Of a DNA stretch of 64,000 bases, positions 38,052 through 64,000 are shown piece after piece (the stretch's first letter is position 1; each line of letters begins with the position of its first letter). A program made the translations under genes and the position numbers. A model generated the notes under the pieces. The model had not been told where the DNA came from. It did no database searches and saw only the letters and a list, made by a program, of their open reading frames with translations. Where the stretch lies: positions 1-64,000 of the forward strand of contig KE560926.1 of assembly GCA_000442015.1 (NCBI GenBank), in the 5' to 3' direction. The stretch is from Rozella allomycis CSF55 (Eukaryota).

Positions 38052-38650
38052 ATGGTAATTATGGTAGTCTTTTGCCGTCATAGTCTAACACACTTCGACC
38101 TTACTTAAACGCTGTGAGATCCACAATATCGGCCGCTATATGCATACAAAATTTCGCTTCACAAGTTGTGGAAAGACATAACAAACCGGAAGTGGAGGTC
38201 GGGTAAAATTTTGTAACTACTCTGATCTAGAAAAAGTAAAGAAATAATATTGAATCCCGTCACTATATCAAGGAATGAAAATGAACGTGTATTGATTGAG
38301 GCATCCATTAATTCGATTAGAGTATCTATTCGTATAAAGCAAGCCGATGATACGGAAAAATTACTCTGCCATAAATTTACAAGATTTCTTATGCAGAGAG
38401 CAGAACATTTTATTATTCTTAGACGAAAACCAGTCGAAGTAAAAAAGGTTATTGTATTCTATGTACACAGGGTTATGACTTAAGCTTTTTAATCACCAAT
38501 TTTCATACAGAACAAATGTACCGTCATAAAATTGTAGATTTCGTTATCACCTTCATGGAGGAAGTTGACAAGGAAATAAGTGACATGAAGCTAACACTAA
38601 ATGCTAGAGCTCGTATTGTAGCTGAAGAATATCTGAAGCAATTTGCTTAA
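38052..38650 (+). CDS. ARPC4: Arp2/3 complex subunit 4 (p20)
   Basis: [13 protein letters not shown]...[70 protein letters not shown]. Confidence 0.96.
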
Positions 38651-38687
38651 TAAACTTTTTCAATTATTTTTTGAAATTCAATTTTTT

Positions 38688-39761
38688 ATGATAATTTTTG
38701 CCTTAAGTTGGATTTTTTCTGGCTGTTGCAGCAATGTTTACACACTGGAATACCTTGTGAGGTACTATATAATAGGCCCGTTAATATAGTCAAGAGAAGT
38801 CTTCTGGCAATTTAATAACATTTGCGCAGTTTTTATTTATTAGTATAGAAGGTTCACTGTATTTTTTCCTACAAAAAATACGAGGTTCCAAAGTCTTTCA
38901 TGTTCCGAAAAGTGAGTGGATTAAGGTGGTAATTATATTCTTTGTTGTCTCTTGCATCAATAACTGGGTATTTGCCTTTTCAATACCGGTTACGCTACAT
39001 ATCATTTTCCGATCTTCATCTTTAGTAATTACCATGATTATCGGTTCGTTTTTTCTAAATAGACAGTAAAAATCATATACATTCATTCTTGATATTCCAA
39101 GAAAGCAATTTATGGAGTGCTCATGGTCTCAATAGGTGTCATTGTATCAACCGTTTCCCAAGTAAACTGCATATATACTATACAATTAGCTTAAATCAGA
39201 AAATCTAAACACCAGTGATCATAATCATATAGCTGGTCTCCTATTGCTGTTCGTAGCAGTAGTATTAAGTTGCATACTAGGAACTATACAAGAATCCATT
39301 TACATTAAATATGGTAAACATTGGAGGGAAGCACTTTTCTTTACAGTATATTCTGTAGCTGAATTTTATTTTTAGCATCTTTTTTCTTTGCCGGGATTTT
39401 TAATAATCTCACCATCAATTGTTGAGGCTGCTAGGCACTACGATGATTATCGCCTTTTTCAATTATGGACATTTCGATTTCAAAATTTATGGGCGGTTTT
39501 GATTCTAAACGTAATAAGCCAGTAAGTAATGAAGGTATCTTTTGTAGGTATGTTTGCATTAGAGGGGTTCACCAATTAAGTTCATTGACGTCCTCAGTAA
39601 CTTTGAATTTGGTTTTGAGTTTAAGAAAATTAGTCTCACTTCTTCTGTCTGCTTATATTTTCGACAATCCGATTTCAGTTAATGGGTGGGTAGGATGTGT
39701 CATAGCCTCATTAGGGACCATTCTATACTCAATGGCAGATATTAAACGGAAAAAGGAATAA
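38688..39761 (+). CDS. YEA4: UDP-GlcNAc/UDP-xylose transporter (Yea4/SLC35B4)
   Basis: IFSGCCSNVYTLE, HIIFRS, YQESIYIKYGKHWREALFF, QYVCIRGVHQL, SVTLNLVLSLRKLVSLLLS; several introns. Confidence 0.9.
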
Positions 39762-44176: not shown

Positions 44177-46091
44177 ATGTCGAAATTTGCTAAAATGAAT
44201 TCTGACAAGAAGCGCAAGATCGACGAAACTTTACCAACTGAAGACACTGAAAAAAAAGTATTTTCATACCTATAGTAATAAAAGGATGATTTCAATTTGT
44301 TGGAATTCCAAAAGAAAGCTATTTGGGTGAAAATGAGAGAGTATAAAGCTCAAAACGAAACTAACCTTTTAAAAATTCAAAATATAAGTGAAAAAAATAA
44401 TAAACTAATAAAGCAAAACGAAAAATATCGATTAACTTTAGAGATGGTATCAAAATGGATAATTTTTAAAACATAGCTTCAGTCTATTTGCAGGAAAGTA
44501 TTAGGAAGAGAAGTAGATTTGGCAAATGAAGAAAATAATGTGGATAAAATGTTAAAAATGATTACAGGTATGAAATGACAAAATGCAGAACAAAAGGACT
44601 TGACAGTGAGAATTTCAAGGAATTGTTGGAAGAAATTAAAGAGGGAGTGACTGTATCAGTGGAAGTTAAGGAAAACTCTGCAAGCGTTGCTGAACTAAAC
44701 AAAGATATAGAGGGAATGAAAGAGGATATTTCTAACTTGCAAAGAAAGTATAATCGATTACTTTTGGAGAATGAAAAACTAAAACAAAAGAAAAACAATA
44801 ATCCTGTCGCTGAAAATAAAAATGAAAATGAGAGTTTAGAAAATAAAGATTTGATAATTGAATTAGATTACCTCAAAAAGCAAAATGAGATGTTTATGAA
44901 TGAAATAGAAGCATTGAAGAAAGTTAAGGTGGATTTAATGACAAAATCAGAAGAATTAAAGGATGAAACTCAAGAGAAAAGATCTAATGATTCTTATGAA
45001 AGGCAAAAAGACGTAATAAAGCAATTGAGAAGAAATATTGATGATTGCAAAGATAGGCTTGCTAAAGAATATGATAAAAGGCATGATTACATTAGAAGGC
45101 TTCAGAGAGAAAATGCTGAAAAATTGGATGATGCAATAAAGCTAGTTCAAGGGCATGATTCTCAAGATATAAAAATGGCAAAAGAGCTGGAAAAGGCAAA
45201 AATCGAATTAAAAGAGTTACGCAATAAATACGAATACTTAAAAAAGAAGAATGAAGAATTCTCAAAGTTAAATACTATAATGGGTCATTACGACTCGTGT
45301 TTGAAGAGAATAAATGCAGATCTTTCTGAGTCTGAATGGATGGCAGAGATTGAGAACATGGCAAAAGCTTTTGAGGAAATGCAGGAACATAATGAAAAGT
45401 TGGAGAAACAACTTTTACAAAAAGAAGATTTAATTTTGCAACTCTTGGGAGAAAAGGTAAAAGTTGACCAGGGTCACAACTTGTTGGAAAAGGAAAGACA
45501 ACTTTTTCAAGAGACTGTTAGTCATTGGAGGAAGAAAGAAGTGACTTTAAATGAATCATTGAAAAAATTGAAAAAGAAGGAACTGGATCTGGAATCTGAA
45601 AAGACTCGTCTAGACAAGGAAATAGCTCTTCGTTACGAAGGTGCAGAATCCATGAAATGGAAGTATAATAATGAAGTTTTAAAATCGAATGAATTAACAT
45701 CCAAACTTGAAAAATTGTCTGGAAAAATGGACAATTTGCAAAAGTCTTTCAAGGAAAAGTTAGTTCAATATGAAAAGGATGTTTTGTATCGTAAAAAATT
45801 TGAAGATGAATGTAAAATGCTAAGGAAAAAGATCCAAGTTATTAAAGGCGAGTCTTCTGAAGATTTTGATGAAATTGCAGCTTACAAAGTAATTCTTATT
45901 AATAGATCCAATGTTAGAAACTACTGTATTGTAGCGCATGTGAAATTCGCCAGAAAGGGGTGATAATAACGCGTTGCATGCATTTATTTTGTAAAGAATG
46001 CATTGATGACCGTTTGGATTCAAGACAGCGCAAATGTCCTTCTTGTGGTGAAGGTTTTGGCCAAAACGACGTAAAGCCAGTTTATTTGTAA
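44177..46091 (+). CDS. BRE1: Histone H2B ubiquitin ligase Bre1
   Basis: EFQKKAIWVKMREYK, long coiled coil, EIENMAKAFEEMQE, C-terminal RING CSAC...CMHLFCKECID...RQRKCPSC. Confidence 0.92.
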
Positions 46092-48652: not shown

Positions 48653-51600
48653 ATGGGAGTTCCGGCGCTTTTCCGTTGGCTTAATAATAAGTATCCAAAA
48701 ATTACGAGGAGTGTTATAGAAGAAGCTGCAACTGCGAATAATACTGTTTGTGGCAGGCTGGATGCTTCTGGGCCGAATCCCAATGGGGAAGAAAATGATA
48801 ATTTGTATTTGGACATGAATGGAATTATCCATCCTTGTTGTAAACCGGAAGGCAGAGAGGCACCGAAAACGGAGGAGGATATGTTTTTGGCGATATTTGA
48901 GTATATAGACAGAATATTTGCGATGGTCCGACCGAGGAAGCTGCTTTATATGGCTATAGATGGTGTTGCGCCTAGAGCAAAGATGAACCAACAGAGAAGC
49001 AGAAGATTTAGGTCTGTGAAAGAGTTGGCGATGAAAAAGGCGAAAGAGGAAGAGATGATTGAGAATGGATTTGAGGTACCCAACACAGAGGATGGAGGAG
49101 AAGAATTTGATAGAAACTGTATTACCCCTGGGACAATGTTTATGTATAATTTGTCAAAGGCATTAAGATATTATGTGCATGATAGATTGAGTAATGATCC
49201 TGGCTGGAAGAATGTGAAAGTGATGTTTTCAGACGCGAGTGTACCTGGAGAGGGAGAGCATAAAATAATGACTTTTATTAGACAGCAAAGAATGAGTGAA
49301 GATCACGATATGAATACTAGTCATGTGATGTATGGACTTGACGCTGATTTGATAATGTTGGCGTTGGCTACACATGAACCACATTTTAAAATATTGAGAG
49401 AAGATGTATTTGCAGAAGATAGTACTAAAAGGTTTACGTGTACAAAATGCCAAAAGACTGGCCACATTGCAGCAGATTGTCCATTGGATAATCCAGAGAA
49501 GAGTGCCGTCCAGCCAAAGCCATTTATATTTTTAGATGTTGGGATTTTGAGAGAGTATTTGGAAGCAGAAATGAAAACAAATCCAAAATTAGATTTAGAG
49601 AGACTGATTGATGATTGGGTGTTTTTGTGTTTCTTTGTTGGAAATGATTTTCTTCCGCATCTTCCGTCATTAGAGATTAGAGAAGGAGCGATTGATAAAC
49701 TTTTAGAAATATACAAGAGAAGATTTGATGAAATGGGAGATTATTTAACGAATAATGGAATTGTAGATTTATCACGTGTGGCAATCATTATGGAAGAATT
49801 AGGGAGAATTGAAGATTCGGTTTTTAAGTCTAGAAGAGACAGAGAAGAAAGAAGAAGAGCGAATTTTAAAAGAAGAAGAATGGAAAATAATAATCCAATT
49901 CCAAACCAAGAAGAAATCATCGCTGCAAAGAATATTGAAATGGCGTCTCTTTTAAGATCTAAATTAGCCAAGAAATCTATTAAAGAAAATGAAGAAAACG
50001 AAGAAGAGAAAAGAAATTCAAGTGAAGCCAAAGATAAAGATAAAGAAGAGATTAGTGACAAAGTAGAAGTAGAAGAATTAAAAGAAGAGAAGGAAGAAGG
50101 GAATGGGGACAAGGAAGAAATAAAAGTTCTCAAAGGTGATTTGAATGCTCAGCTTACTGAATCAAAAGCTGAAGATTTTAAAGTGGAAACCAAAAATAGT
50201 TTAGAATCTACTGAAACTAAAGATGAAAATACTGAAATCATGGAATCTAAAAGCGTCACTGAAGTTGGATCAACAATCACAGAAATTAAAAGGCCAATCG
50301 ATGAAGATGAAAGTGACCCTGAACCTTACGATGACGTCAGACTTTGGGAAAATGGTTGGAAAGAAAGATATTACTCTTCTAAATTTGGGATTGAATTGTC
50401 TGATACTTCATTTATAGATGATCTAGTATTCAATTACGTCCAAGGTCTTTGTTGGGTTTTACAATACTATTACAGGGGTTGTCCATCATGGAATTGGTAT
50501 TTCCCATATCATTACGCTCCATTCGCTTCTGATTTCACAAAAATATCCAATCTGGATATTAAATTTGATCTAGGAACTCCATTTAAACCACTTGAACAGT
50601 TGATGGGTGTGTTGCCAGCTGAAAGTAGACAATTTCTTCCTCCAGGGTTACAAAAACTAATGATTGACGATGATTCACCAATAATTGATTTTTATCCAAA
50701 AGATTTTTCGATTGATTTGAATGGAAAAATTCATGCTTGGCAAGGGGTTGCACTTTTACCTTTTATTGATGAACAAAGACTTTTAGAAGCAATTTCAAAT
50801 GTTCAATTATCAAAAGAAGAAGAGAAGATGAATGAACAAGGCGAAGAGTCTATTTATCTTGGAAACTCGCATCCTGCATTTTCAATTGTTTTAGATCTTT
50901 ATGAACCAACAATAAAAGAAGAAATAATAGAAGTGGATGCAAAACTATTTGATGGTTTATCTGGATTAATTGGCCCCGATTCTAATGCTGTTCTCCCTGG
51001 TCAGATCTTTCCTAGACCATTTAAACAAGTTTCAGATTTGGAAAACAACAATGCTATTTCGTAATTAATTTTAATTTCTTTAATAAAAGATGTTTGTATT
51101 TCCATCCGCAGTTTCAAGACAAGCATGGATTCCAGTCAGAGTTACTTCCAGGTGTAGAACTTAAAGAGCGAGTTTTGACAAGAAATGATACTGATATGGT
51201 TAAAAGTGGCAGAAAGCATCTGTCACATGCATCCATGCACAGAGAATCTCATCAACAGAGAGAAGGAAGATCCATGCATGGCAAGTTAGACAGAAGATCC
51301 AACAGAAATGATAATTATGTTCCTAACCAAAGACAAGAATATAAACCTTACAATCGTCCAAGCAATCGCAGTAATGAGCGTTCTAGAGAACGTCCAAGTG
51401 ACAGACACAATGAATATCGTTCGTATGATCAATACAATCGTTCTTATGATCAGTATCAAGCATCAAATTATCAATCTGGATATTCTAATCAAAATCAATC
51501 TTACAGCTCTAATTCTAATCAAAATCTATCTTACAGTTCTAACTCTTATCACAATCAATCTTATAGCTCTCAATCTAGTCACAATCAATCATATTACAAT

Positions 51601-52605
51601 CAATATTATCCAAACAACAATTTTGATCAATATTCTCAATATCAAAGTCATCAACATGGTCATCATGTACAAAGTAATTCAAATCTCCATAGTCAACACG
51701 CTCATAATCAACATGGTCATCCTAATCAACANTTGTCACATGCATCCATGCACAGAGAATCTCATCAACACAGAGAAGGAAGATCCATGTATGGTAAATT
51801 AGATAGAAGATCCAACAGAAATGATAATTATGTTCCTAACCAAAGACAAGAATATAAACCTTACAATCGTCCAAGCAATCGCAGTAATGAGCGTTCTAGA
51901 GAACGTCCAAGTGACAGACACAGTGAATATCGTTCGTATGATCAATACAATCGTTCTTATGATCAGTATCAAGCATCAAATTATCAATCTGGATATTCTA
52001 ATCAAAATCAATCTTACAGCTCTAATTCTAATCAAAATCTATCTTACAGTTCTAACTCTTATCACAATCAATCTTATAGCTCTCAATCTAGTCACAATCA
52101 ATCTTATAGCTCTCAATCTAGTCACAATCAATCATATTACAATCAATATTATCCAAACAACAATTTTGATCAATATTCTCAATATCAAAGTCATCAACAT
52201 GGTCATCATGTACAAAGTAATTCAAATCTCCATAGTCAACACGCTCATAATCAACATGGTCATCCTAATCAACACGCTCCACTCGCTCACCAACAAGCAT
52301 TTCCACCGTCAAACTATTCAAACAATCCAGCTCAACAATACGGCTACCAACAGCCACAATACAGCAACATGAATTACTATGGCCCACAATCAGGATACAA
52401 TTGGAACGCACAGTATCAAACACATAATCAACATCAAGCACCAGCCCATAATCAAAACTATTATGTTCAACAATTACAAAACTACCATGGGCAGCAACAG
52501 CAGCAAAGACCATCAAGAGATCCAAGATCAAGTATCAGAAATCAAACCACGACAAACACTGCTAATCTCGCGTGGTCTAGGAACATTAATCGTCAGAAAA
52601 AGTAA
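48653..52605 (+). CDS. RAT1: 5'-3' exoribonuclease Xrn2/Rat1 with zinc knuckle and Q/N/S/Y/H-rich C-terminal tail
   Basis: MGVPALFRWL, DNLYLDMNGIIHPC, AIDGVAPRAKMNQQRSRRF, PGEGEHKIM, CTKCQKTGHIAADC, GNDFLPHLPSL, WYFPYHYAP; one intron about 51061-51089. Confidence 0.96.
51220..52274. repeat. Near-identical tandem duplication (512 and 542 nt) separated by a single N at 51732
   Basis: The copies differ by about 7 substitutions and one extra 30-nt unit (SYSSQSSHNQ) in copy 2. Confidence 0.9.
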
Positions 52606-52668
52606 TAAAAGTTCAAGTTAAATTCAAAAATCTTTTAATTTCATATCCATTATCCATTATAAGTTTAT

Positions 52669-55600
52669 TTATTTGTAGAATCTCTGTCTGAAAGCATCCA
52701 CAGTTTTAGCATTCCTCTCTTTCCTCACAAAACTCGGTTTCATTTCATAAAGCGATCTAGGAAACTGTTTAACAGCCCTTTCTTCAACCTCAATAAACGG
52801 CGGCGGTCTCTTTAGAATAAACGAAATATCCAAATCCACATCAACATTGACCAAATCCAGCACATTCTGAATAGAAACATCATGCACGGTATAAGACGCG
52901 TGGTTGACTACAGAGTTGACAATGTGATCGTCGTCGTATTGAAACAGAGAGCATTTGTGGTTGTATTCTTGCTGTTTCAATACTTCGAATGATTTCTTCA
53001 ATTGGTAAAATAGAGCGGGTGATGATCGCAGGGGATCGGCAGCGAGTAGTTCAAATGTTTTCAGGATTGATTCTCTGGATTTGAAGAGATTCAGGGGATC
53101 AATGTTTTCCTATACTTTGAATTTATGCATATTACTGAATCGAATGCAGAGTCTGGGTTGATTTCAAAAGAAAGTTTTTCTAGTTTATCAAGGATGGCTA
53201 GATCAGATTGATGTGAAGTAGACCATGAATTTATTTTGAAAGAAAGGGGATCCAAGTATATTTCTTTTGAGATTTCATTTGGATGCAAAATCTATATTAA
53301 GATGGATAACAATTTACGTTTTCTATTTTCGAATTGTTAATTAATGATTTTATTTTCTCATTGAATACAATTCTTGTGCCTAAACCTTTAAAGGGAAGAG
53401 TGAATGATTTTTCATGGCAAATGATTGAAAGGGATCCATTCAATGATCCAGTTTTATTGGCGATTAAATTCAAGTCGATTTGTTTTGATTGTTTTGATAA
53501 AATAGAAAAAGATTCTGGTAAAATTAACTTGTAGTCTTTTGATTCAACTGAAGTAATGACTACGTTGGCAGTAACATCGCCCTTGTTTATTAACTGAATT
53601 TTAGCTTGTTGAATGAAATAACAAGGACAGAAACCTTTTTAATTAAAATTATGTTTGTATTACCAAAGTTTAGAATAGAAGAGGGTTTGATTAGTAGATT
53701 GAATGTACCGCCGACACCAAAGGCGATTATTTCCTTGTAATTTGTTCCTTTGCATTCAACAATAAAATTTTCTTGAAATTTAATGAAATTATTTGGTGTG
53801 AATGAAAGATCTACATTTTCAGATTCATGGACATTCAAAGTTCCATGTAATTTTGACAATCTAAAGACATCTTTTTGATGATAATTGATAGACCATTTAA
53901 GTGGTACTTTACCTAATGATTATTCAATAGGTTTCTATTTACCTAATTATTATTAAAGCATATTATTACCTCTGTTAACTAGCGTGAATGATTTGCTGTA
54001 TAAACAATCCACAGCACACACGCCAAAATCCAAACAAGAATGCCTAATAAACAAATCGGGCTGCACCGACTTTCCTCTCACCGTGCAATCAAACACACCC
54101 ACATTAGTCTTCAAGTGAATCTGGCTTCTCAGTTCATACGCGCCAGAAGGCAGCCAGCTAATTTTAACCATTGCTCTATCCAGCCCATTAATAGAAATAC
54201 AATTCGGCTCTACTCTGATGGGGAATGCAGCAATAATGTCAATTTGGAGTGGATACTTTCCAATATTTACCAAAGGAATTTCCCTCGTCGACAGTTCAAA
54301 GACGGGACAGGTGGACAGGTTTATTGATTCGATTAGAGATAAATCCAGAAGAGCTTCTTCGCATTGCCCCATCAAGTCGACGTGATAGAATTTGTCATTG
54401 GCGTCTGTTTTAATAACTATTTTTTCTTCGAATGGGCCAGTTTTGAATGGAATGCAGCTTGTAGAGATTTCAACAGACTTTTTAGGTAGAACTAGTCCTT
54501 TGAATGTGTGCAGTTGAATGAATGAAGGTTTTGTTAATGGTTTAATAGAAAACTTTGTTTTAACAGAGCCAATGTTTTTAATTATGAAAGATAGTTTGGG
54601 TTTGGTGGATTTTTCAAAAAAGCCGAAATCTAATTTTGATTTTGACACTTCTAGACTGATTGTGCCAGAATGTAATTTGATTGGAATTAGATGCCTTGAA
54701 TAAGGAGAAGAAACTAATAAATGAAGTTGCAAATCTAAATCTTTTGGTGGTTTAAAATAAATCATTAAATTTGATTCTTCAAATGGTAAAATAGTTAAAT
54801 TGGATGGTTGAAGAATTATTAAATTATTAACAATTGAATCTAAAAATAGAAATCTAATAATAATACCCTTGTCTTTATCTTTATCTTTTTCATGAATAGA
54901 AAATGTTAATGGATAATTAACTTGACCAACATTTTTAAAAGTAATTGAATCAGAATATGTATTCCCTTTGAATATAATTGTATGTTATTTACCAACAATG
55001 CAGTCTATGAATTCAAGAGATGATTTTGAGATTAGCAAGACAGATTCTCTTCCAGTTCCAATTAATTCAATTTCATATTTTTCTAATAAAGTTCCAATTA
55101 TAACTTTTCCTGCTGGAGGATTCTCTTCCATTGGCATAAAAATTAATGGCAAATTAAATGTCGTTCCTTTAAATTGTTAACAATCAATGTTACCTGGTTG
55201 AAGTGATATTCTATCCATTGGCCATTCAATTCCTTTAACTGTGAGAATAGATTAATTACCTCTAGAATAATGTTTAGATTCAACCAAATCAAACAATGTT
55301 AAATGAAGAATTGCATTTCCTTCATTTGTTATTGGCAAATAAGACAATGTTTGTTTTCCCAGCATACACAACCCAAAATCAAACCTATATATGTTAAAAG
55401 TAAAGATTTATACCTATTTCAAAGATTAACAATTGATTACCTAGATTATCTACTCTACCTTTTTCTACCTTTTAAATTTGGTTAAACTGATTCGCGCAAA
55501 TCCACCCCCACCAAACATCCCCAACCTAATCCTCTGCGAACAATCAGGTTCAAAATACACAGGCGCACTCTGCACAGCTTCTTCCGTCGGCTTAAAAATA

Positions 55601-58600
55601 AACGCAATAGTAACAGACTCATTAACATTTAAATTACCCTTATTAGGAACAACAACCAGCGATGAATTTTCATTAACAATTTTAAATGAAATAGATTTAT
55701 GCCCAACATTTCTGAAATTTCTGTAAATAGTTTCAGATTGGCCCAACGGCTGTCGACCAAAATTTAAAGTTGAATTGTCGTCTACTAGAATTGTGACTAG
55801 TTTGGGAGAGGCTGTGATTAATGTTTCAATGTTTTTGGTGTTTGGTATGTCTACTTTGCCAATGAGGGTGGATGAGAATGATTCTTCGTTGGGAAGTAAT
55901 AGTTCTATTGTTATTTCAATCTCTGAATGTCCATTGATCATTGTTTCTGATGGGAATACTTTGATAAATGGTTTTGTTGTGCATAGTGATTGTGAACCAA
56001 CTGGATTTGTTGTTATTAAATGATAAAACATTTGCTTCTTTTTCAATTGAATTGATAATATATTCAACATGTTCTTTTTAGTCAATTGTTTAATATCTAT
56101 CAATGATAATAGATGATTATTTACCCAACCCTTTCTCTAAACAACTCTCAAAGCTTACCTTGATCTTTTAGTACCATTCGTTTAATCAACATCCAATAAT
56201 CTTTAGCTTTAAATTCAACAGATTCATTTCTATCCTTTTTCTCTTTAATTAATTGATTTCTTAAAAAGGGAGATCTTGGATCTGTAACTGAAAATTGTTC
56301 TTCTAGATTAACAAAAGATCCATTAGTTTTATTCTGTCCAACAATTGAAAATTCAAATTTTATTCTCGTTGAAATTGAACCCGCATTCGTTATTTTAATC
56401 TTCTTTTGATAAGCATACATGGCTGCTATATCACTAAAATTCAAATCTCCATTAAACGCTAAATTAATTGTTCCACTCTTGCCTATTCTAATCATTTGTG
56501 TTATTTCAAACCTTTTAATGGAATAGTCAAGTCATTTCTTTCAGCAAATATGTGAATAAATGAAGTAACACTCTCTTCTACTCTACTATTAAATCTAACT
56601 AGAAAATCCATGGCACTTGAAGCATTCAACATGAATTGACCATCTTTAATCCAATTAAAGCTAGTAACCTTTAAAAGTACAATTAAAATTAAATTATTTA
56701 CCTATTAATCAAATATAGTTGAATTCTTTCACCTAGTAATCATTTACCAGTACTACTTTACCTATATTAATCATTCCAACTACTACTTTACCTAGTAATC
56801 ATCCAAATTATTCTCCTTTACCTTTTTTCTCTTCTCTTCTTTGATTCTCTCCACAGGATACGCACTGCCAACCACACAAGTACTAAAATCCTGCCCATCC
56901 TGCCTAACATTAAACTGCATCGACACAAGCCCCACATTAATCAGCCTAAAATAACAATCAAAACTAGTAAACAGTGGAATAGTCCCAAAATCAATACACT
57001 CAATTCTAAATCCATCCAGACTCTCCACCTGCAGCTTGCCCAGTCCACCCATCCCAACAACTTTAAGTGAAATGCACTCCTTTTCATACAAGATCTTCAA
57101 ATTGGCAATATATTTGCTATCAGTGCGTGGCTTGAACACAAATCTTAGAGGAATTACACTGTTGGCTTCAATGTAGCCTCGTCGTGGTTGGATGTCCATT
57201 TCACGGATTCCTGTTGGCTGGATCAAATAGTCGATTGAAAAACACGATGAATTTACAAGCTTGAAATTGTTTATCATGCAAGTTAACACTGGCTGCACCT
57301 TTAAATCCAATTCTACATTCTTGTCTGTTGAACTAATTGTTCTTTCGTTGGAATCAATCAGCGATAATCTTGGAACACTACTGGCTCCATTCAATTCCAC
57401 ATCTACAAATTCTTTTCGTGTGTAAATTCTTATAATCTTTTTAAATTCAATTGATTCTGCTGGATTGAATACTATTTTACATTTAATCTTGGAATATGCA
57501 TCTACACACCCTTGATTTGGTTCAATAAACAGTCCATCGTTTTCTAATTCAATCATCCATCTTGTTTTGCCATCCTTTTTTATTGTTTCATAGTCATCAT
57601 CTTCCAATAAACTCCAATCCAAGTTTCCTGGTTGTGGTCGAACCTAAAAGATTTAGGGGTTTAAAAGTACATTACCTTGAAATTAATGCCTAAATTACTC
57701 AAGTTACCTATTATCAAATTATTCAGTATAGATACCTATATTCAAATTATTTCAGTATAGATACCTATTATCAAATTATTTCATCTTATTACCTTGAAAT
57801 TGAATGGCAAATTGCCTTTGTTTTCAATAAGAATCTCTTTTTTAAAAGTAGATTCAACTCTACACATCCCAAAGTCTACAAACAATTCATCAACAGCCAA
57901 CACAGCTTTCCCTATTAAACACCCACAAACACTCATTACCACCATGCCCTCTCACCAGCGTAACAAACGAGCTAAACCCATAATAAAATTCAATCTTATA
58001 ATCATAAAGCACCATTTCAGTCGGTTTAAACGCCAGCTTCACTTCTACCCCCTTATCAACCTTCAATTCTCCCTTATTCGGCTCAACAGTAAATGGACTG
58101 GCTGAATCATACACGTATCGTCCCTCTTTCACCTTTAAAAACCTAACTTGGAATTTAATATCAATGTTGCCGTGGTTAAACAGCTTAAACTTTTTCACCT
58201 CAAAAGACTCAATCTGACACACCCCAAATTCAATACAGTTCATAAACGTTTCTGGTTCAATCACAATCTTTGGAGCGCCAACCTTGCCCTTCAACTGGAT
58301 AGTAAAATAGTCGCCTCTAGCATCATTAGACCTAACGTAGATTTTCACATCCAAGTCTTCAATAACAGTCGGAGTAAACAGAACATTCGCTTTGGCGACA
58401 CTGTTTGGGGGAATACACACCATCCCATTGTCGCTGTTGCTCTCCAATTTAATCTGTGGATGGTAACACGCAAAAGTTAGTGATGCTTCTGCTGGGCCCT
58501 TGTTCTCAATTTCAATGGATTTCACATTCAACACGCCAATCAATGCAACATCAAAGTCTAATTCTTTTGTTAACACTTGGATCTCTGGGTATCCGCCACT

Positions 58601-61600
58601 TCCTTTAAATGATATCACTAGTGGTTTGGGTGTGTTTATTTCTTCTGATTGAACGTGGACTTTTAATTGTCCTTTGATGTTGCAAACACTTTTTGGTTGA
58701 AATTTAATCATCAAATAAACAATTCCATCACCTCATTTCAACAATTCAAACTAGTTACCTTATTATGTCAATATCTTAAACTTTTACCTAATATTTCAAC
58801 CCCGTAAACTTTTTACCTTCAATAGTACCATTCTCTGGTTCAACAGACACTTGCGGGTCGCTACTCTCAATATAAAACTTTGCNACAGACACTTGCGGAT
58901 CGCTACTCTCAATATAAAACTTTGCCGACATAACACCCTGATTAGTAACAGTAACATGATCGACATAAACAATCTGCCCCACACAAACACACTTAAAGTC
59001 AATAAAATCAGTTGAACAAGTTAAACTCGTAGACGCCCCCACTCCCTGCACAAGAATACTGCAGGTGGAATAATCTTCAGTAACCAAATGCAAAATACTC
59101 TGCATTTGGTACTGCGGCATTGACGGCTTGAACACCACATCAACAGTCTGCGTGCACCCGGGATACAATCGACCGTGCAATGGGAATATTTCTAGACAAG
59201 TTGTTAGCAATCTTTGCACTGAGAAATTGGTGTTTGTTATTTGGCCTTGCAGTGCTTTGATTAGGTTTGCGTTTTTGCCGGCTTTTCTGTAGACCATTTC
59301 TTCTTGCTCAATGCACCAGTTTAATGGGACTAGACCATTGTTAGTGAATTTAATTTCTTTTAAATGTTTATCTTGGACTCCACAAATGCCAAAATCAATC
59401 TTTTTCTCTGTTACTATTAATGGTGGTTGCAAACTGGCTTTGGTAGAGTAAACAAATTCTGTGATTGTATTGTTTATTGAAGACACTTTAAATGTTACAT
59501 CAGATTCATATTCTCCCTTATTATAAAGTTTCATCGTAATTTACTTTGGATAGTCCACCAAATGCAAAAACAAAATCTATAAATTGATTTGGCGCTAATC
59601 TTATAGGAAACAATCTCTTCAATGTCTATCATTCTCTATTTAAAACAAATCTTACATTGTCGTTGAATTTAAGTTTAAAGGTGAAATCTAATTCATCCCA
59701 ATCAACACAAATAGAATCTGGTTTTTCATCTTGCAATTCAAATTGATTCTTGAATGGATTCAATGCTTCATGATAAGATTTTACATCATCCAATGCTATC
59801 AATTGATTTGTTCTGTAATCTACAACATTCCAAGCTAATAAATCTGGATTTGAACAATTTAAATTCATCAAACTCAATTCAAATGTACTTGTATTAAACA
59901 ATCTAAATGTTTTTGTTTTACACGAACCAACTCCAACCAATCCAAAATCTATCAAGCTTGGCAAATCTTTAATTGAAACAAATTCAACATTATTAAATAC
60001 ATCAACTGCATTTTCATTCTCTTTCAATAGTTTGGCATCTTTCAACACTGAATCTTTTAACGTTGAGTCTTTTAAGATTGAAGAATCTTTCTGTTTCAAC
60101 TCCTTTATATCTTTCACCTCCTTGACCTCTTTCAACTCATGTTCTTCAACTCCTTCAACTTCAATTATCCTCTTCACACTCTTAGGCCTCGCCAAATTAT
60201 TCTCCAACACAATCTTCCCACTATTAGCCATCAAAGACACAGCAAATGTTTTTCCTTTATGACAAATACAAATAAAATCAGAAAAATAATCAGTCAAAAT
60301 TGGCTGAAACGAAATACTCAACACAATCTTACTCAACTTTGGTATCATCTTGATAATAGACTTTCCATTCAACATAAACGGTTGCTTTGGCGGTAATAAT
60401 GAAATAAAAGTATCCATTGGTGAATTATTATAGATTGTTATTGATTTGTTCACTGAATTGCCAACTTGTACATCGCCAAATGATATTGATTCATTAGTGA
60501 ATTGGATCTCTCCTTCGCCAATACTAGACTCCAAATTTATTATCTTTATTGGAACATTTATCAATTTATTCTTTTCATGCTCCAAACAGTTAATCTCCAT
60601 CTTTGAATGATAGTTTCCTTGTCTCAATGCTTGAAACGACACATCAACACAATACATTTCATATCCATACAACTTGCCATGCGTAGTATTCAATGAAAAT
60701 GGCACTGTAACCTTTTCTTCATTTACTTTATCTAAATATATCTTTGCCTCCCATGACACTTCAATTGGAAATCTATTATAGATCATCAACCGCTCACTCG
60801 TCTTTTCATTCGATTTCGGTGATCCTATTTGAATAACACTTTTAGTTCTTGTTTCTGTCCATATTTGGTTTTGATACACTCCATACAAACTACATCCAAC
60901 ACAACTCTTTCCTATCTCAACCCTTCACCATTAATTACCTTGATCATCACACACAGAAATCGATCCAACAATCGTATTGCTCTGATCTTCAATAAACAAA
61001 TCAAAATAGTTATAATCAATCCCCACAACCAACTCTACACTCTTGTTCGGATACAACGTTCCTTCAACTTCATTCACTACAAAGAATGGCCACGACACTA
61101 CAATTCTATACTTTTGCACTATAGAAGCCACACACGTCAATGTAACTGAAACATTCTTATTCACTTTCAAATACAACGCATTGCAACTCAATTTAAATAT
61201 TTCTGGAGGCGCTTGAATAGATTCAACAACTTCAACCAAATAATCACTCTCACTAAACATCAATCTTCTATCCTCTTCTCGCCCAAACAATGTTCTTATT
61301 TGCGCTACAGTCTTCACCTTCAAAAACGCTTCACTCAAACTCATTCCAAATATCACATAAACTACTTTCGGCATCTTTATCGGCTCACTCATCTTTACAC
61401 TCAAATTACTTTTATAAATCCCTCCCTTGGCTGGATTAAACACCAAATCCACAAAATACACTGAACAACTCGGCATACACAACACCAACACTTGCTCATC
61501 CTCTTCATTCTTCATCTCTGCCTTTACCATCTCATTCTTATTATAAACACTATTAGGCTTCATACTGAACACACCATTCTTCTTTTCTATTCTAACTTCC

Positions 61601-64000
61601 ACTCTGCTACTCTCCAAATGCGGATTATAAATGGGAACAACGATATTCACACTAGCCTTCGGATTCACCGCAGGCATCACAATCGTCTGTCCAAACGGCA
61701 CATTCACCATACAATTCACCTTGCAAACACACTCAACACTCTTAACTTCACTATTAGGGCTATAAATATTCAACACACTATTCTTCATCCCTCCAAAATT
61801 CGGTTTAAAATACACACAAACTTTCCTCTTCTCACCAGGTCTCAACACAAGCGCCTCCATCTCCTCTTCAATCAATACCTCCCTTGACCCACTCTGTATA
61901 ATAACAGGCACACTCTCCTTTTCATCTTTATTAATCAGCGTCAAACTCTTTTCAACCTTCTCCATCGACACATCACACACCCCAAAATCTAAGCGGTCTT
62001 CAACTACCTCCAACGCACTAAAACAGCGTCCTTTCAATTTCACAAAATGCTTCTCCCCATACGCCGTCAATATCATCAGCTCATCCTCAATCTCATCCTC
62101 CTCACACTGCGGCTGGAACGTTATCCATATCTGCTGCTTGTTCCTCGGCCCAATAGTCATGCTACCCACACTGCTCGCAAAAAATGAACTCGTTTTGCTA
62201 GGCACAACACTAAATATACAGTTCAAATCCATCCCCGATAAATTAGACACAACCAGCAACGCCTTTCTCTCGTCTTTAACAATACACGTTCCGAAATTCA
62301 GTCTCTGTGCTGATAAATGCAAAACTGGAATATTAAACGCTCTCAATGACAGTCTATTCCATCTTTGATAGTTTATTACCTCTCCAACAGGAATCCATTC
62401 ACATTCCTCACACGCAAATACCCATTAATGTCTCTGCCCATCGTAATCTCCAACGGTCTGGGCGTATACTGGATGCTCAAATTGGCATTCGAATTCGCCT
62501 TCAAAAACACATACCCAGGCTCTGCTACAAACAGATTCGGTGGATATGTTTGCAAACACAGCGATACATCCACATCCGATTTATTGTAAATGTTAACCTC
62601 TTTAGACAAATTAAACTTGTTGAATATCAAACCGGTTGGCAAACTAAATGTTATAGTGGCCGGATCAAGAACAAAATCTCTTTGCTTGTCATTGCCAGAT
62701 GCGATTTCATCAAGAAACGTTATAGAAGAAAATTTCCCCATCAAATCTATTTTAGCGATGTGTTTAATTTACTATTGAGAGAGAACGAGCGCAACGACGC
62801 TGACACTTTACGTTGCCTCTGTGCGATGGTCTCAATATCATCCCTTAATTCTTGGCGCGCAAATACCGTATAAACTGGCGGCTCAACTATATTTTCCTCA
62901 TTAAAAGCTCGTTACCATTTTTATCATCATCAAAATACGGAAGCGCTTGCACCATGCCATTAGCCTTTTTCTTATTAGCATTTGCAAACTTTTTAGATCT
63001 CGTCCATCCAAATTCTGCATTATGCTTTATATCACCCGATTTCCCTGAATCAAACCTAGTAGCATCTTCAACCATCCATTTCCTTCTACGCACAGCATAC
63101 CCGCAATCACCCAAATACTTTTCATTGCCTTCCAAATTGGCCTGCAAAGATGGAAGCTGCGCAATGTGAGAATCAGAGGGCAGCGGATACCATTTGTTCC
63201 AAAACTTGGAAATTGCCTTTACCAGGTGCGGATGGTAGTCTTCATTCATGGATCCGATTTCATCAAACAAATTAAATGATAGCTCTTTGACAGCAACAAA
63301 GAAAGTATTCATTCTTTGTCGATTGCGATTGGTCATATCCAATCGACACAAAAACGACAATACCTCTGCTTGCAACAGGAAATGCACATTCTCATTCAAC
63401 AGATGCAAAAGCACCATGTCAATGTAATCTGCTATATGCTGCTTTATAGCCTTGTTTTCATCACGCATGAAATACGACAAGGCATTCAATATCATTATAC
63501 GATTCTTGGTATGCTCATCAGCAACAAAATACTCCTTGTGTGGCGGCTTCTGTGTATGCACAGCAACAGGAAACAGCTTCACAAACATATTCACAACAAC
63601 AATACAACCCAAACGCAATGAGACACTGTAATTCTCGCCAAATGCGGAATTCAAATAACCAAGCACAACATACGCCAGAAACCTGTTCTGCTCCACCTTT
63701 TATCATCAAAGATATACACCATACTTCATCACTGCTGGCAATATCAGTAACCCGTACGATCAACGCGCGGATACTTTCAGCATTCAGCAACGTGCTTTGG
63801 ATAGCATTGGCGCCCATATTAAATAACATTTTCATAGTGGTCAATCTAATGAATGTCTCGGGAGACTTTAGCGCATTAAGGATATTGTTCCAATGTTCTT
63901 CATAACACTTCATATTCATATAATTCTATTAATGCAATACCAATTCTTTACATAGTCACAAGAAAGCATGGAATATGCTTGTATTATTTGCTTAAAAATT
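52669..64000 (-). CDS. Giant ciliary-type protein with many tandem ASH/Ig-like domains (HYDIN/CFAP47/CFAP65-like) and a helical N-terminal region; 5' end outside window
   Basis: Repeated units of the form LDFG.C......i.i.N.G.....F......F.v.P..G.l......v.i.F.P........l.i......i.l.G.G across ORFs 53091-62744. Exons join in frame through about 22 intervening sequences over more than 3000 codons. Confidence 0.8.
53913..53969 (-). other. Stacked intron array A: 2 abutting GT..AG units (27+30 nt)
   Basis: AGA G|GTAATAATATGCTTTAATAATAATTAG|GTAAATAGAAACCTATTGAATAATCATTAG|GT AAA GTA CCA; removal gives LVNRGKVPLKW. Confidence 0.8.
55385..55468 (-). other. Stacked intron array B: 3 abutting units (28+27+29 nt)
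   Basis: AAA AG|GTAGAAAAAGGTAGAGTAGATAATCTAG|GTAATCAATTGTTAATCTTTGAAATAG|GTATAAATCTTTACTTTTAACATATATAG|G TTT GAT; removal gives KFKRFDFGLC. Confidence 0.8.
56669..56821 (-). other. Stacked intron array C: 5 abutting units (30+30+29+31+33 nt)
   Basis: AAG|GTAAAGGAG..GATTACTAG|GTAAAGTAG..ATTAATATAG|GTAAAGTAG..GATTACTAG|GTGAAAG..GATTAATAG|GTAAATA..TTTTAAAG|GTT ACT; removal gives KRKKVTSFNW. Confidence 0.82.
57644..57792 (-). other. Stacked intron array D: 5 abutting units (28+29+28+32+32 nt)
   Basis: TTC AAG|GTAATAAG..GATAATAG|GTATCTATAC..GAATATAG|GTATCTATAC..GATAATAG|GTAACTTG..TTTCAAG|GTAATGTAC..CTTTTAG|GTT CGA; removal gives NKGNLPFNFKVRPQPG. Confidence 0.82.
58732..58816 (-). other. Stacked intron array E: 3 abutting units (29+29+27 nt)
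   Basis: GAA G|GTAAAAAG..AAATATTAG|GTAAAAG..CATAATAAG|GTAACTAG..GAAATGAG|GT GAT; removal gives EPENGTIEGDGIVYLMIKFQP. Confidence 0.8.
58843..58925. repeat. 41-nt tandem duplication separated by a single N at 58884, with one synonymous difference
   Basis: acagacacttgcgggtcg...tttgc N acagacacttgcggatcg...tttgc (GAC versus GAT on the coding strand). Confidence 0.9.

What the first reader, a model, noticed from the sequence alone, without database searches (positions are those of the whole stretch)
52669..64000. Stacking occurs only where the flanking exons read AG|GT
Seen: all 5 arrays lie at exon junctions whose upstream exon ends in AG and whose downstream exon begins with GT (AGA G|GT, AAA AG|G T, AAG|GTT twice, GAA G|GT). 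The roughly 17 other introns I traced in this gene are single and none has both features (for example AG|GA near 60912-60938, AG|GC near 56483-56511, TG|GT near 53635-53663, AA|GT near 63697-63724). Inference: AGGT at both intron ends is a direct repeat that lets slippage or unequal crossover duplicate the intron precisely. Alternatively, introns are repeatedly inserted at a regenerated proto-splice site. Either gives a testable rule for intron multiplication.
Basis: partly seen in the sequence, partly recalled or inferred. Interest (0 to 1): 0.8.

Follow-up and report, generated by a model that had tools for sequence, protein, structure and literature searches.

The report
Stacked mini-introns at AG|GT exon junctions
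In one large cilium-type gene of a eukaryote with tiny introns, five exon junctions hold head-to-tail runs of two to five intron-sized units, always where the exons read AG|GT, and the unit number differs between public DNA samples, so introns seem to multiply here by local tandem duplication.

Summary
Window 64000-52669 (minus strand) is one open frame of 3433 codons once 35 GT..AG units at 22 sites are removed. Five sites are head-to-tail arrays of 2, 3, 5, 5 and 3 units of 27-33 nt. All 5 have exon flanks AG|GT. None of 17 single sites in the gene does, nor any of 74 strictly predicted or 44 further loosely predicted single introns in the window (Fisher 3.8e-5 in the gene, 4.4e-8 in the window). 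A scan that uses no gene model finds 19 AGGT-bounded intron-like segments, and 18 of them are the array units.

Neighbouring units are related. All five arrays differ by about whole units (28-61 nt) between public DNA assemblies, and no such joint lies at a single intron. This supports tandem duplication with later expansion and contraction, and argues against repeated insertion of unrelated introns.

It is not shown whether AGGT acts as slippage microhomology or marks introns born by duplication of exonic AGGT (Rogers model). No RNA data or whole genome was available, so splicing of the units and the genome-wide rule remain untested. I found no published description. I rate it a new variant of tandem-duplication intron gain.

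The parts
52669..64000 (-). Host gene, 5' end cut by the window. It gives 3433 codons after splicing and encodes a large protein with many ASH / Ig-like (HYDIN/CFAP65/CFAP74/Cep192-type) domains. The stop codon is at 52671-52669.
   Evidence: one open frame with only the terminal stop; 7 of 8 exon translations hit PF22544, PF24507, PF24798, PF22073 or PF15780; only 1 weak homologue (E 5.6e-6), so the protein evolves fast.
58732..58816 (-). Array A5, 3 units: 58816-58788 (29 nt), 58787-58759 (29 nt), 58758-58732 (27 nt). Exon flanks are AG|GT, phase 1. The total of 85 nt shifts the frame.
   Evidence: U1/U2 similarity is 0.40. TRF reports period 28. Run X5 shows about +29 nt here (table 5c, depth 5.7, weak).
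57644..57792 (-). Array A4, 5 units: 57792-57765 (28 nt), 57764-57736 (29 nt), 57735-57708 (28 nt), 57707-57676 (32 nt), 57675-57644 (32 nt). Flanks are AAG|GTT, phase 0. The total of 149 nt shifts the frame.
   Evidence: U1-U3 similarity is 0.42-0.75. TRF reports period 29, 2.8 copies, 90% matches. Long contigs of X1 and X5 are 29 nt shorter and one of X6 is 28 nt shorter across it; a contig of X2 shows none of these deletions at 57740-57773.
57676..57707 (-). Unit A4 U4. Its 3' part is a copy of the last ~21 nt of the upstream exon (exon tail at 57813-57793).
   Evidence: 17 of 28 ungapped matches to its own exon tail, against a null mean of 10.1 (p = 0.0023, uncorrected for 18 tests). Read directly.
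56669..56821 (-). Array A3, 5 units: 56821-56792 (30 nt), 56791-56762 (30 nt), 56761-56733 (29 nt), 56732-56702 (31 nt), 56701-56669 (33 nt). Flanks are AAG|GTT, phase 0. The total is 153 nt, with an in-frame stop if retained.
   Evidence: U1-U3 similarity is 0.35-0.48. X6 is 61 nt shorter (side 255) and X5 is 60 nt shorter (side 56). The same joint appears in X1 and X2 with only 21 letters on one side.
55385..55468 (-). Array A2, 3 units: 55468-55441 (28 nt), 55440-55414 (27 nt), 55413-55385 (29 nt). Flanks are AG|GT, phase 2. The total is 84 nt, with an in-frame stop if retained.
   Evidence: The units are not alike. In X6, 73 letters replace 18 (net +55, side 255). The same joint appears in X1 with side 18. 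X5 has the window's form.
55454..55473 (-). Perfect 10-nt tandem duplication that spans the exon/intron boundary at the 5' edge of A2 (5 exon letters plus 5 intron letters, twice).
   Evidence: TRF: period 10, 2.0 copies, 100% matches. Read.
53913..53969 (-). Array A1, 2 units: 53969-53943 (27 nt), 53942-53913 (30 nt). Flanks are AG|GT with the downstream exon starting GTAAAG, phase 1. The total is 57 nt, with an in-frame stop if retained.
   Evidence: Splicing the array out restores an N-x-G-x-x-P-x-x-W motif (..LVNRGKVPLKW..) like those of the other ASH domains in the same translation. An X5 contig is 60 nt longer here (side 255).
56097..56158 (-). Composite site counted as a single. It is either one 62-nt intron or two introns (22 or 28 nt, plus 28 nt) around a 12- or 6-nt micro-exon. 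All three readings keep the frame. Flanks are AG|AT.
   Evidence: and by reading. Not resolved without RNA.

Best explanation
The arrays are minisatellite-like runs of complete, self-sufficient mini-introns.

Origin (inferred). A ~27-30-nt intron whose exon flanks read AG|GT is bounded on both sides by the same word, AGGT, often longer (AGGTA). A slipped or unequal alignment in that register copies exactly one GT..AG unit. Because the copy is a whole intron, the gene stays intact.

Dynamics (copy-number differences are shown; the mechanism is inferred). Once two units exist, their ~28 nt of homology lets slippage or unequal exchange add and remove units quickly, so unit number becomes polymorphic and older units diverge.

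Splicing (inferred). The spliceosome removes the units. Each inner boundary is a 3' splice site abutting a 5' splice site, and removing any one unit regenerates AG|GT, so the units can be taken out one after another, or from the outermost sites at once, until the exons join at AG|GT.

Shown here: the anatomy, the AG|GT association, the relatedness of neighbouring units and the copy-number differences. Inferred: the causal role of AGGT, the molecular route (replication slippage versus unequal exchange) and the splicing itself.
For: 1. The association is complete: 5 of 5 arrays at AG|GT, against 0 of 74 strictly predicted and 0 of 44 laxly predicted single introns. In a model-free scan, 18 of the 19 AGGT-bounded intron-like segments in the window are array units.
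2. Neighbouring units are related. Adjacent pairs have a mean score of 0.25 against -0.04 for single-single pairs (Mann-Whitney 1.4e-5), and 8 of 10 pairs above the 99th percentile lie within an array. TRF reports periods of 28-30.
3. Unit number is polymorphic at all 5 arrays, at about 0.5-1.7% nucleotide difference in the listed contig pieces: A1 +60 (X5); A2 +55 (X6); A3 -61 (X6) and -60 (X5); A4 -29 (X1, X5) and -28 (X6); A5 +29 (X5, weak). Every 'skips' or 'goes back' joint in table 5 lies in an array or at the assembly join at 58884. None lies at any of the 17 single sites.
4. Differences of 29, 55 and 61 nt are not multiples of three, and every array carries a stop or a frameshift. The arrays therefore cannot be coding.
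5. Each unit looks like a working intron. Unit scores do not differ from leave-one-out scores of 73 singles (Mann-Whitney p = 0.81), and all 18 units score above at least 95% of 435 exonic GT..AG decoys.
6. There are small-scale slippage footprints at the same boundaries: a perfect 10-nt duplication across the A2 exon/intron edge and an exon-tail copy inside A4 U4.
Against: - No RNA holder was listed, so removal of the units, and whether it is stepwise, is untested.
- All arrays lie in one gene: 5 of its 28 mature-mRNA AGGT sites are arrays, against 0 of 55 in the other modelled genes. A gene-specific cause is therefore possible.
- Four letters of microhomology are a weak driver. Ten single sites have 3 nt of boundary microhomology and two have 4 or more, and none is stacked. 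Shifted-register duplications such as A4 U4 need only the AG flank, yet 0 of 14 AG|-only sites is stacked.
- If arrays can shrink to one unit, single AG|GT introns should exist. None was seen, although only about 0.8 would be expected from the flank frequencies (my arithmetic).
- The units of A2, and the 3'-most units of A3 and A4, show no similarity to their neighbours.
- One 28-letter length difference in an X6 contig between 55409 and 56744 could not be placed. That interval includes parts of A2 and A3 but also two single sites.
Confidence: 0.55

Rival explanations
1. Rogers-type birth. The five sites were once intron-less exonic AGGT. A ~28-nt tandem duplication spanning AGGT created a GT..AG segment that splices out. 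Further slippage of the new repeat then built the array. AG|GT flanks follow by construction, with no role for microhomology.
For: - It explains the all-or-none pattern and the unstacked half-sites (0 of 18).
- Exonic AGGT targets are plentiful: 23 uninterrupted in this gene and 55 in other genes, against 18 half-site introns. By my arithmetic, random short duplications filtered only for splice-ability would fall mostly on exonic AGGT.
- A4 U4 contains exon-tail sequence.
- The model is established elsewhere. I read passages of PMC3265369 (ATP2A1 intron, re-enacted in a minigene), PMC4974935, and PMC3629103 (24-nt repeat units forming introns in fission yeasts).
Against: - 17 of 18 units show no likeness to their flanking exons.
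- In 4 of 5 arrays the downstream exon starts GTT or GTG, whereas position 3 of the intron is A in nearly all introns here (PWM). A unit copied from that exon head would have had a poor 5' site. In A2 and A5 that third letter cannot change synonymously (phases).
- Whether the positions are lineage-specific could not be tested.
Confidence: 0.25
2. Repeated insertion. Excised introns are put back by reverse splicing, or by an introner-like element, at the proto-splice site AG|GT. That site is regenerated after each insertion, so the introns pile up.
For: The flanks equal the classical proto-splice word. Several units (all of A2, A4 U4/U5, A3 U4/U5) are unlike their neighbours.
Against: - The related units are neighbours. 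The best unit-versus-single scores are no higher than single-versus-single scores (99th percentile 0.29 against 0.32), so no source intron is seen in the window.
- The allelic differences are gains or losses among the similar units.
- Insertion next to an existing intron needs only one flank, but 0 of 18 half-sites is stacked.
- At 27-33 nt the units have no room for transposon features.
Confidence: 0.05
3. Selection only. Duplications hit all introns equally, but only stacks at AG|GT junctions splice well enough to survive, because every intermediate keeps the same splice-site context.
For: With AG|GT flanks, each unit sees AG before its 5' site and GT after its 3' site, in whatever order the units are removed (read).
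Against: - Of the 74 singles, 60 lack AG| and 70 lack |GT, so neither context is needed for splicing here.
- A filter of this kind would still pass stacks at AG|-only or |GT-only sites.
Confidence: 0.07
4. Each array is simply one longer intron (57-153 nt) with internal repeats. The inner AG|GT boundaries are never used.
For: The outermost GT and AG suffice to restore the frame. A 62-nt candidate intron exists at 56158-56097.
Against: - 73 of 74 single introns are 24-30 nt, so long introns are at best rare here.
- Every inner unit keeps GT, a (T/A)AG-type end, intron-like composition and a length of 27-33 nt, although many have diverged beyond recognition. That suggests each unit is kept functional.
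Confidence: 0.2
5. Assembly artefact: the repeats come from mis-assembly.
For: A true artefact lies nearby: a 42-nt duplication around the N at 58884, which an X5 contig skips.
Against: - Arrays are present in contigs of four independent runs from four studies.
- As read, the most similar pair of units (A4 U2/U3) shares no exact stretch near the 31 letters of the index words named, so collapse of repeats is unlikely.
- The arrays sit exactly where the reading frame needs an intron.
Confidence: 0.02

Closest known systems
[quoted passage not shown] Cases: vertebrate ATP2A1 (PMC3265369), potato RdRp (PMC4974935), and 24-nt repeat units in Schizosaccharomyces genes (PMC3629103). I read passages of these three papers. 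Rogers 1989 itself I did not see.
   Same: Tandem duplication supplies GT and AG. The new intron is flanked by AG|GT and the protein is unchanged. In the fission-yeast case several short repeat units lie within the intron.
   Different: - Here the repeated unit is itself a full-size intron for this organism (27-33 nt), so duplication yields several abutting introns with zero-length exons, not one intron.
- 17 of 18 units show no exon-derived sequence.
- Unit number is polymorphic between samples.
- In the yeast case the repeat word is AGGC, and one intron spans several units.
Recursive splicing at zero-length-exon 'ratchet' sites in long Drosophila and vertebrate introns (recalled; no paper read here).
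   Same: A 3' splice site directly abuts a 5' splice site (AG|GT), and removing the upstream part regenerates a usable 5' site.
   Different: Those sites subdivide very long introns and are conserved functional signals. Here the pieces are minimal introns of repeat origin, and stepwise removal is not shown.
Minisatellites / VNTRs.
   Same: Tandem units of about 30 nt, internal divergence, and copy-number differences between alleles.
   Different: The period and the unit borders are tied to splice signals, and the arrays sit inside a coding region where every unit must be spliced out.
Intron transposition and introner-like elements (Oikopleura, Mycosphaerella, Cladosporium; as summarised in the introduction of PMC3629103, passages read, and in the search listing of PMC3609843).
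   Same: Multiplication of intron sequences, and related introns within one gene.
   Different: Those copies lie at separate positions, are longer, and form dispersed families. Here the copies abut and resemble only their neighbours.
Ultra-short intron genomes: dicyemids at 26.2 +/- 1.9 nt (PMC2222250) and a median of 27 nt (PMC6543705), myxobolids at 22-27 nt (PMC13644364), Paramecium at about 25 nt (as cited in PMC2222250). I read passages or abstracts.
   Same: A narrow intron length class. In this window it is 24-30 nt with a mode of 26.
   Different: - None of the passages I read mentions abutting or tandem introns. 'Tandem' occurs 0 times in PMC13644364 and once, about zinc fingers, in PMC2222250.
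- This organism carries SNO/PdxT and MscS-type genes and is probably not an animal.

Membership tests
Spliceosomal GT-AG mini-intron (each unit) | GT at the 5' end and AG at the 3' end | tested here: met
   All 18 units (assert; sequences).
Spliceosomal GT-AG mini-intron (each unit) | Length and internal signals like the organism's ordinary introns | tested here: met
   Unit scores against leave-one-out scores of 73 singles give Mann-Whitney p = 0.81. Sixteen of 18 units are at or above the singles' 10th percentile. The units are somewhat longer (mean 29.3 against 27.5 nt, p = 1.3e-4; range 27-33 against 24-30).
Spliceosomal GT-AG mini-intron (each unit) | Removal is required for an open reading frame | tested here: met
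   This is shown for each array as a whole. It cannot be shown for single units from DNA alone.
Spliceosomal GT-AG mini-intron (each unit) | Absent from mature RNA | not testable with these tools
   No RNA holder was listed. All four laid runs keep the introns.
Tandem-duplication intron gain (Rogers model) | The intron lies at an AG|GT exon junction | tested here: met
   5 of 5 arrays.
Tandem-duplication intron gain (Rogers model) | The intron sequence is derived from the flanking exon sequence | tested here: inconclusive
   One of 18 units (A4 U4, p = 0.002 uncorrected) matches its exon tail. The other 17 do not differ from the null. Age could have erased the signal.
Tandem-duplication intron gain (Rogers model) | The intron position is absent in relatives (recent gain) | not testable with these tools
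   No related loci were found in metagenome or genome contigs, and only one weak protein homologue was found.
Recursive (zero-length-exon) splice sites | A 3' splice site directly abuts a 5' splice site | tested here: met
   All 13 inner boundaries read AG|GT.
Recursive (zero-length-exon) splice sites | Stepwise removal with detectable intermediates | not testable with these tools
   No RNA data were available.
Minisatellite / VNTR | Head-to-tail units with copy-number variation between alleles | tested here: met
   TRF periods of 28-30. Length differences of about whole units at all 5 arrays (A5 rests on weak support).
Introner-like / transposed introns | Dispersed family of near-identical introns at unlinked sites | tested here: not met
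   Within this 64-kb window, units are no more similar to the 73 single introns than the singles are to each other. This was not tested genome-wide.

The most novel reading that the evidence does not exclude
In this tiny-intron genome, any intron bounded by AGGT on both sides is an unstable, length-quantised repeat. The same register that copies a unit also deletes one, down to precise intron loss. The number of introns at a junction would then be a fast-evolving polymorphic trait, and intron gain and loss could be watched at population level. This would explain three things: why no single AG|GT intron is seen, why exonic AGGTA is scarce (4 of 28 AGGT sites in the mature mRNA), and why the arrays are the only length-variable introns. 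It would be a natural system of obligate recursive splicing of minimal introns.
Probability: 0.3. Interest if true: 0.85.

Novelty: new variant of a known kind. Interest (0 to 1): 0.7.

Why it matters
How spliceosomal introns multiply is a long-standing question with few caught-in-the-act cases. Here one gene shows five junctions where whole introns are present in 2-5 abutting copies. The copy number differs between samples that are only about 1% diverged, and a simple sequence rule (AG|GT) separates these junctions from about 118 ordinary ones.

If the rule holds genome-wide, it gives three things:
- a predictive, testable mutational mechanism for intron gain, and possibly for precise loss;
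- natural substrates with zero-length exons, for asking how a spliceosome tuned to ~27-nt introns handles abutting sites;
- a caution for gene annotation in tiny-intron genomes, where stacks would be called as odd long introns or as frameshifts.

Tried and rejected
- RNA evidence: no RNA holder was listed. The four laid runs are intron-bearing contigs, so nothing can be said about expression or splicing.
- Relatives: the search for related loci with the exon between A4 and A3 found no relative in metagenome contigs (122 pattern hits, 0 confirmed) or in genome contigs (75 hits, 0 confirmed). A search for longer homologues of a 497-aa exon gave 1 weak hit. Intron-position conservation could therefore not be examined.
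- First gene models: a minimum-intron path search gave spurious introns. The strict gene finder read two in-frame stretches of the arrays as coding (A3 U5; A4 U3+U4), merged correctly only after curation, and missed the ARPC4 and UAA-transporter genes at 38.0-39.8 kb. A laxer run added 44 candidates, some surely false.
- Candidate counter-examples rejected:
  - +30704-30756 is a single intron followed by exon; the Sec7 profile is contiguous, 134|135.
  - At +39511-39580 the second 'unit' is coding; the UAA profile starts there.
  - +5130-5193, +20165-20214, +44540-44596 and -17422-17368 each pair a real intron with an exon stretch that begins GT and ends AG.
  - The 25 nt after A3 score like an intron, but removing them would break the frame.
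- Exon-likeness of the units (Rogers test): negative for 17 of 18 units.
- Depletion of exonic AGGT: 28 observed against 34.2 +/- 5.4 in codon shuffles, not significant.
- Organism: the intron sizes suggested a dicyemid. The SNO/PdxT and MscS-EF-hand genes and XRN2 best hits to chytrid fungi argue for a flagellated fungus-like opisthokont instead. I did not name it.
- Literature: ten searches found no description of abutting spliceosomal mini-introns. Subscription papers (for example Ogino 2010, Rogers 1989) and supplementary files were not visible and could hold such a note.

Full report
WHAT IS THERE

The window is AT-rich (GC 0.30-0.40) and gene-dense. It reads in the standard code, with stop-free frames of up to 1491 nt. 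A small gene finder trained on the window finds introns of 24-32 nt that start GTA(A) and end (T/A)AG. The 73 single introns used later are 24-30 nt long with a mode of 26.

The finding lies in one minus-strand gene. After curation, removing 35 GT..AG units at 22 sites turns 64000..52669 into a single frame of 3433 codons whose only stop is the last codon. The frame is still open at the window edge. Each of the 22 sites would shift the frame or bring a stop if it were retained.

Seven of 8 exon translations hit HYDIN/CFAP65/CFAP74/Cep192-type ASH/Ig domains. The protein has only one weak homologue in the large protein set, so it evolves fast.

Other genes in the window include:
- an XRN2-type exonuclease whose best hits are chytrid fungi, then molluscs, at about 50% identity;
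- SNO/PdxT, an MscS-type channel with an EF hand, proline dehydrogenase, TPK, LSM and cytochrome b5;
- Sec7, ARPC4 and UAA-transporter genes.

I read this as a flagellated, fungus-like opisthokont and probably not an animal. I did not try to name it.

THE OBSERVATION

Five sites are head-to-tail arrays:

| Array | + coordinates (minus strand) | Unit lengths (nt) |
|---|---|---|
| A5 | 58816-58732 | 29, 29, 27 |
| A4 | 57792-57644 | 28, 29, 28, 32, 32 |
| A3 | 56821-56669 | 30, 30, 29, 31, 33 |
| A2 | 55468-55385 | 28, 27, 29 |
| A1 | 53969-53913 | 27, 30 |

All 5 arrays have AG|GT exon flanks. None of the 17 single sites in the gene has, nor any of the 74 single sites of the strict model in the whole window. 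Fisher exact gives 3.8e-5 for the gene and 4.4e-8 for the window. Forty-four further candidates from a laxer model also show none.

Among the 74 singles, 14 end in AG| and 4 begin |GT, so half-sites exist but are unstacked. One of them, +30704-30731 (AT|GT), is verified because the Sec7 profile is contiguous across it, positions 134|135.

A scan that uses no gene model finds 19 intron-like segments bounded by AGGT on both sides, on both strands. Eighteen are the array units. The other one lies antisense to the Sec7 gene.

Chains of three or more intron-scoring units occur at 4 loci, against 0 in 60 Markov simulations. Two-unit chains are within chance, so A1 rests on the reading frame and on the ASH-domain motif that splicing restores (..LVNRGKVPLKW..).

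Apparent counter-examples were checked and rejected.

ARE THE UNITS INTRONS?

Each unit starts GT, ends AG and is AT-rich (0.68-0.88, against 0.64 for the coding sequence). The units score like the ordinary introns (Mann-Whitney p = 0.81), and each scores above at least 95% of the exonic GT..AG decoys.

The units are slightly longer than single introns (29.3 against 27.5 nt, p = 1.3e-4), and none has the modal length of 26 nt.

No RNA run holds the locus, so removal of the units is inferred from the frame and from the allelic length differences described next.

VARIATION BETWEEN SAMPLES

Contigs of four public DNA runs from four studies were laid on 52600-64000. In the listed pieces they differ from the window at about 0.5% (X1), 1.0% (X2), 1.7% (X5) and 1.5% (X6) of letters; this is my sum from table 8.

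All five arrays differ by about whole units:
- A1: +60 in X5 (side 255).
- A2: 73 letters replace 18, net +55, in X6 (side 255). The same joint is in X1 with only 18 letters on one side. X5 has the window's form.
- A3: -61 in X6 (side 255) and -60 in X5 (side 56). X1 and X2 show the X6 joint with a side of 21.
- A4: -29 in long contigs of X1 and X5, and -28 in X6. A contig of X2 shows none of these deletions at 57740-57773.
- A5: about +29 in X5, seen only in table 5c at depth 5.7 (weak).

Every 'skips' or 'goes back' joint listed lies in an array or at the assembly join at 58884. None lies at a single intron. Differences of 29, 55 and 61 nt cannot be coding.

Two caveats apply. The table of small indels was cut ('28 more are not shown'). 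One 28-letter difference in an X6 contig between 55409 and 56744 could not be placed; that interval holds parts of A2 and A3 but also two single sites.

ORIGIN

Neighbouring units are related: A4 U1-U3 score 0.42-0.75, A3 U1-U3 score 0.35-0.48, A5 U1-U2 scores 0.40 and A1 scores 0.35. Eight of the 10 pairs above the 99th percentile of single-single scores lie within an array. Units are no closer to the 73 single introns than those introns are to each other. TRF reports periods of 28-30. The allelic differences fall among the related units in A3, A4 and A5.

Two slippage footprints sit on array borders. One is a perfect 10-nt duplication across the A2 exon/intron edge. The other is a copy of about 21 nt of the upstream exon tail inside A4 U4 (17 of 28 matches, p = 0.002 uncorrected).

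Together this supports tandem duplication followed by expansion, contraction and divergence, as in a minisatellite. It speaks against piling-up of unrelated introns.

WHY AG|GT?

Three readings remain.

An intron at an AG|GT junction is bounded by the direct repeat AGGT, so slippage in that register copies exactly one working intron. The difficulties are these:
- Four letters are a weak driver.
- Two singles with boundary microhomology of 4 or more but without AGGT are unstacked.
- Out-of-register events such as A4 U4 need only the AG flank, yet 0 of 14 AG|-only sites is stacked.

(b) Rogers-type birth at exonic AGGT. This gives both flanks by construction. Exonic AGGT targets (23 in this gene and 55 in others) outnumber half-site introns (18). 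By my arithmetic, random ~28-nt duplications filtered only for splice-ability would land mostly there. The difficulties are these:
- 17 of 18 units show no exon likeness.
- In 4 of 5 arrays the downstream exon begins GTT or GTG, which is a poor 5' site in this organism.

(c) Selection on splicing context. This is unlikely, because most single introns lack either flank.

I put (a) at about 0.55, including the shared core of tandem duplication, and (b) at about 0.25. Insertion and selection-only are each below 0.1.

The same AGGT register could also delete the last unit precisely. That would help explain why no single AG|GT intron is seen. This is speculation; only about 0.8 such introns would be expected by chance.

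UNEXPLAINED

All five arrays lie in one gene, within 5 kb of it. Five of its 28 mature-mRNA AGGT sites are arrays, against 0 of 55 in the other modelled genes (about p = 0.003 by my arithmetic).

COMPARISON WITH WHAT IS KNOWN

The nearest known process is intron gain by tandem duplication of an AGGT-bearing segment. I read passages of PMC3265369, PMC4974935 and PMC3629103. The last describes 24-nt repeat units within gained introns of fission yeasts.

The present case differs in three ways:
- The repeat unit is itself a full-size intron, so duplication gives several abutting introns with zero-length exons.
- The copy number is polymorphic.
- Exon-derived sequence is nearly absent from the units.

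The inner boundaries have the form of recursive-splicing ratchet sites. That comparison is recalled, not read here.

Papers on ultra-short introns (passages or abstracts of PMC2222250, PMC6543705, PMC6736024 and PMC13644364) do not mention abutting introns in what I saw. Ten literature searches found no description. Subscription papers and supplementary files were not visible.

VERDICT

The tandem-duplication reading is supported, and is strengthened by copy-number polymorphism at all five arrays. The causal role of AGGT, the splicing of the units and the genome-wide validity of 'only' remain open. I class it as a new variant of a known kind and score interest at 0.7.

Noticed in passing
window 58843-58925 (N at 58884): A 42-nt direct duplication flanks the single N (TRF: 2.0 copies, 97% matches) and doubles a 14-residue peptide in the translation. 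An X5 contig skips 42 nt here. It looks like a scaffold-join artefact and not biology.
   Followed up: partly
window 56097-56158 (-): This is a 62-nt interruption. It can be read as one long intron, or as two mini-introns around a 6- or 12-nt micro-exon. All three readings keep the frame. It may be a decayed or offset stack at an AG|AT junction.
   Followed up: partly
window 56644-56668 (-): The first 25 nt of the exon after array A3 begin GT, end AG and score like a weak intron (-0.3, about the 10th percentile of singles). Using it would break the frame, so it is a possible cryptic site for unproductive splicing.
   Followed up: partly
whole window, both strands: The 73 single introns are 24-30 nt long (mode 26), with a GTA(A) start and a (T/A)AG end. 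The genome also carries SNO/PdxT and an MscS-EF-hand channel, and its XRN2 is closest to chytrid fungi. Such a narrow ultra-short intron class is described mainly for ciliates, dicyemids, myxozoans and nucleomorphs in the papers I saw.
   Followed up: partly
window 51482-51617 and 51997-52153 (+), inside the XRN2-type gene 48653-52605: Two blocks of 30-nt-period tandem repeats (3.6 and 4.6 copies, 84-88% matches) lie in the 3' coding part of the exonuclease gene, about 500 nt apart. An N at 51732 lies between them. The two blocks may themselves be a duplication or an assembly effect.
   Followed up: no
window 38052-39761 (+): An ARPC4 gene and a UAA-family nucleotide-sugar transporter gene, each with several mini-introns, were missed by my strict gene finder. 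They were found only by ORF reading, Pfam and a laxer run.
   Followed up: partly
window 53933/54498, 58701/60786, 61048/61462 (table 5): Low-depth 'opposite strands' joints appear in runs X5 and X6. They look like amplification chimeras in those libraries and not rearrangements of the locus.
   Followed up: no
array units compared with single introns: Stacked units are on average 1.9 nt longer than single introns (29.3 against 27.5 nt, p = 1.3e-4). None has the modal 26-nt length, and the 3'-most units of A3 and A4 are the longest (33 and 32 nt).
   Followed up: partly
mature CDS of the host gene: Only 4 of the 28 AGGT sites in the spliced coding sequence are followed by A (AGGTA). This could reflect avoidance of cryptic 5' splice sites in exons. 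It was not tested against a proper null.
   Followed up: no
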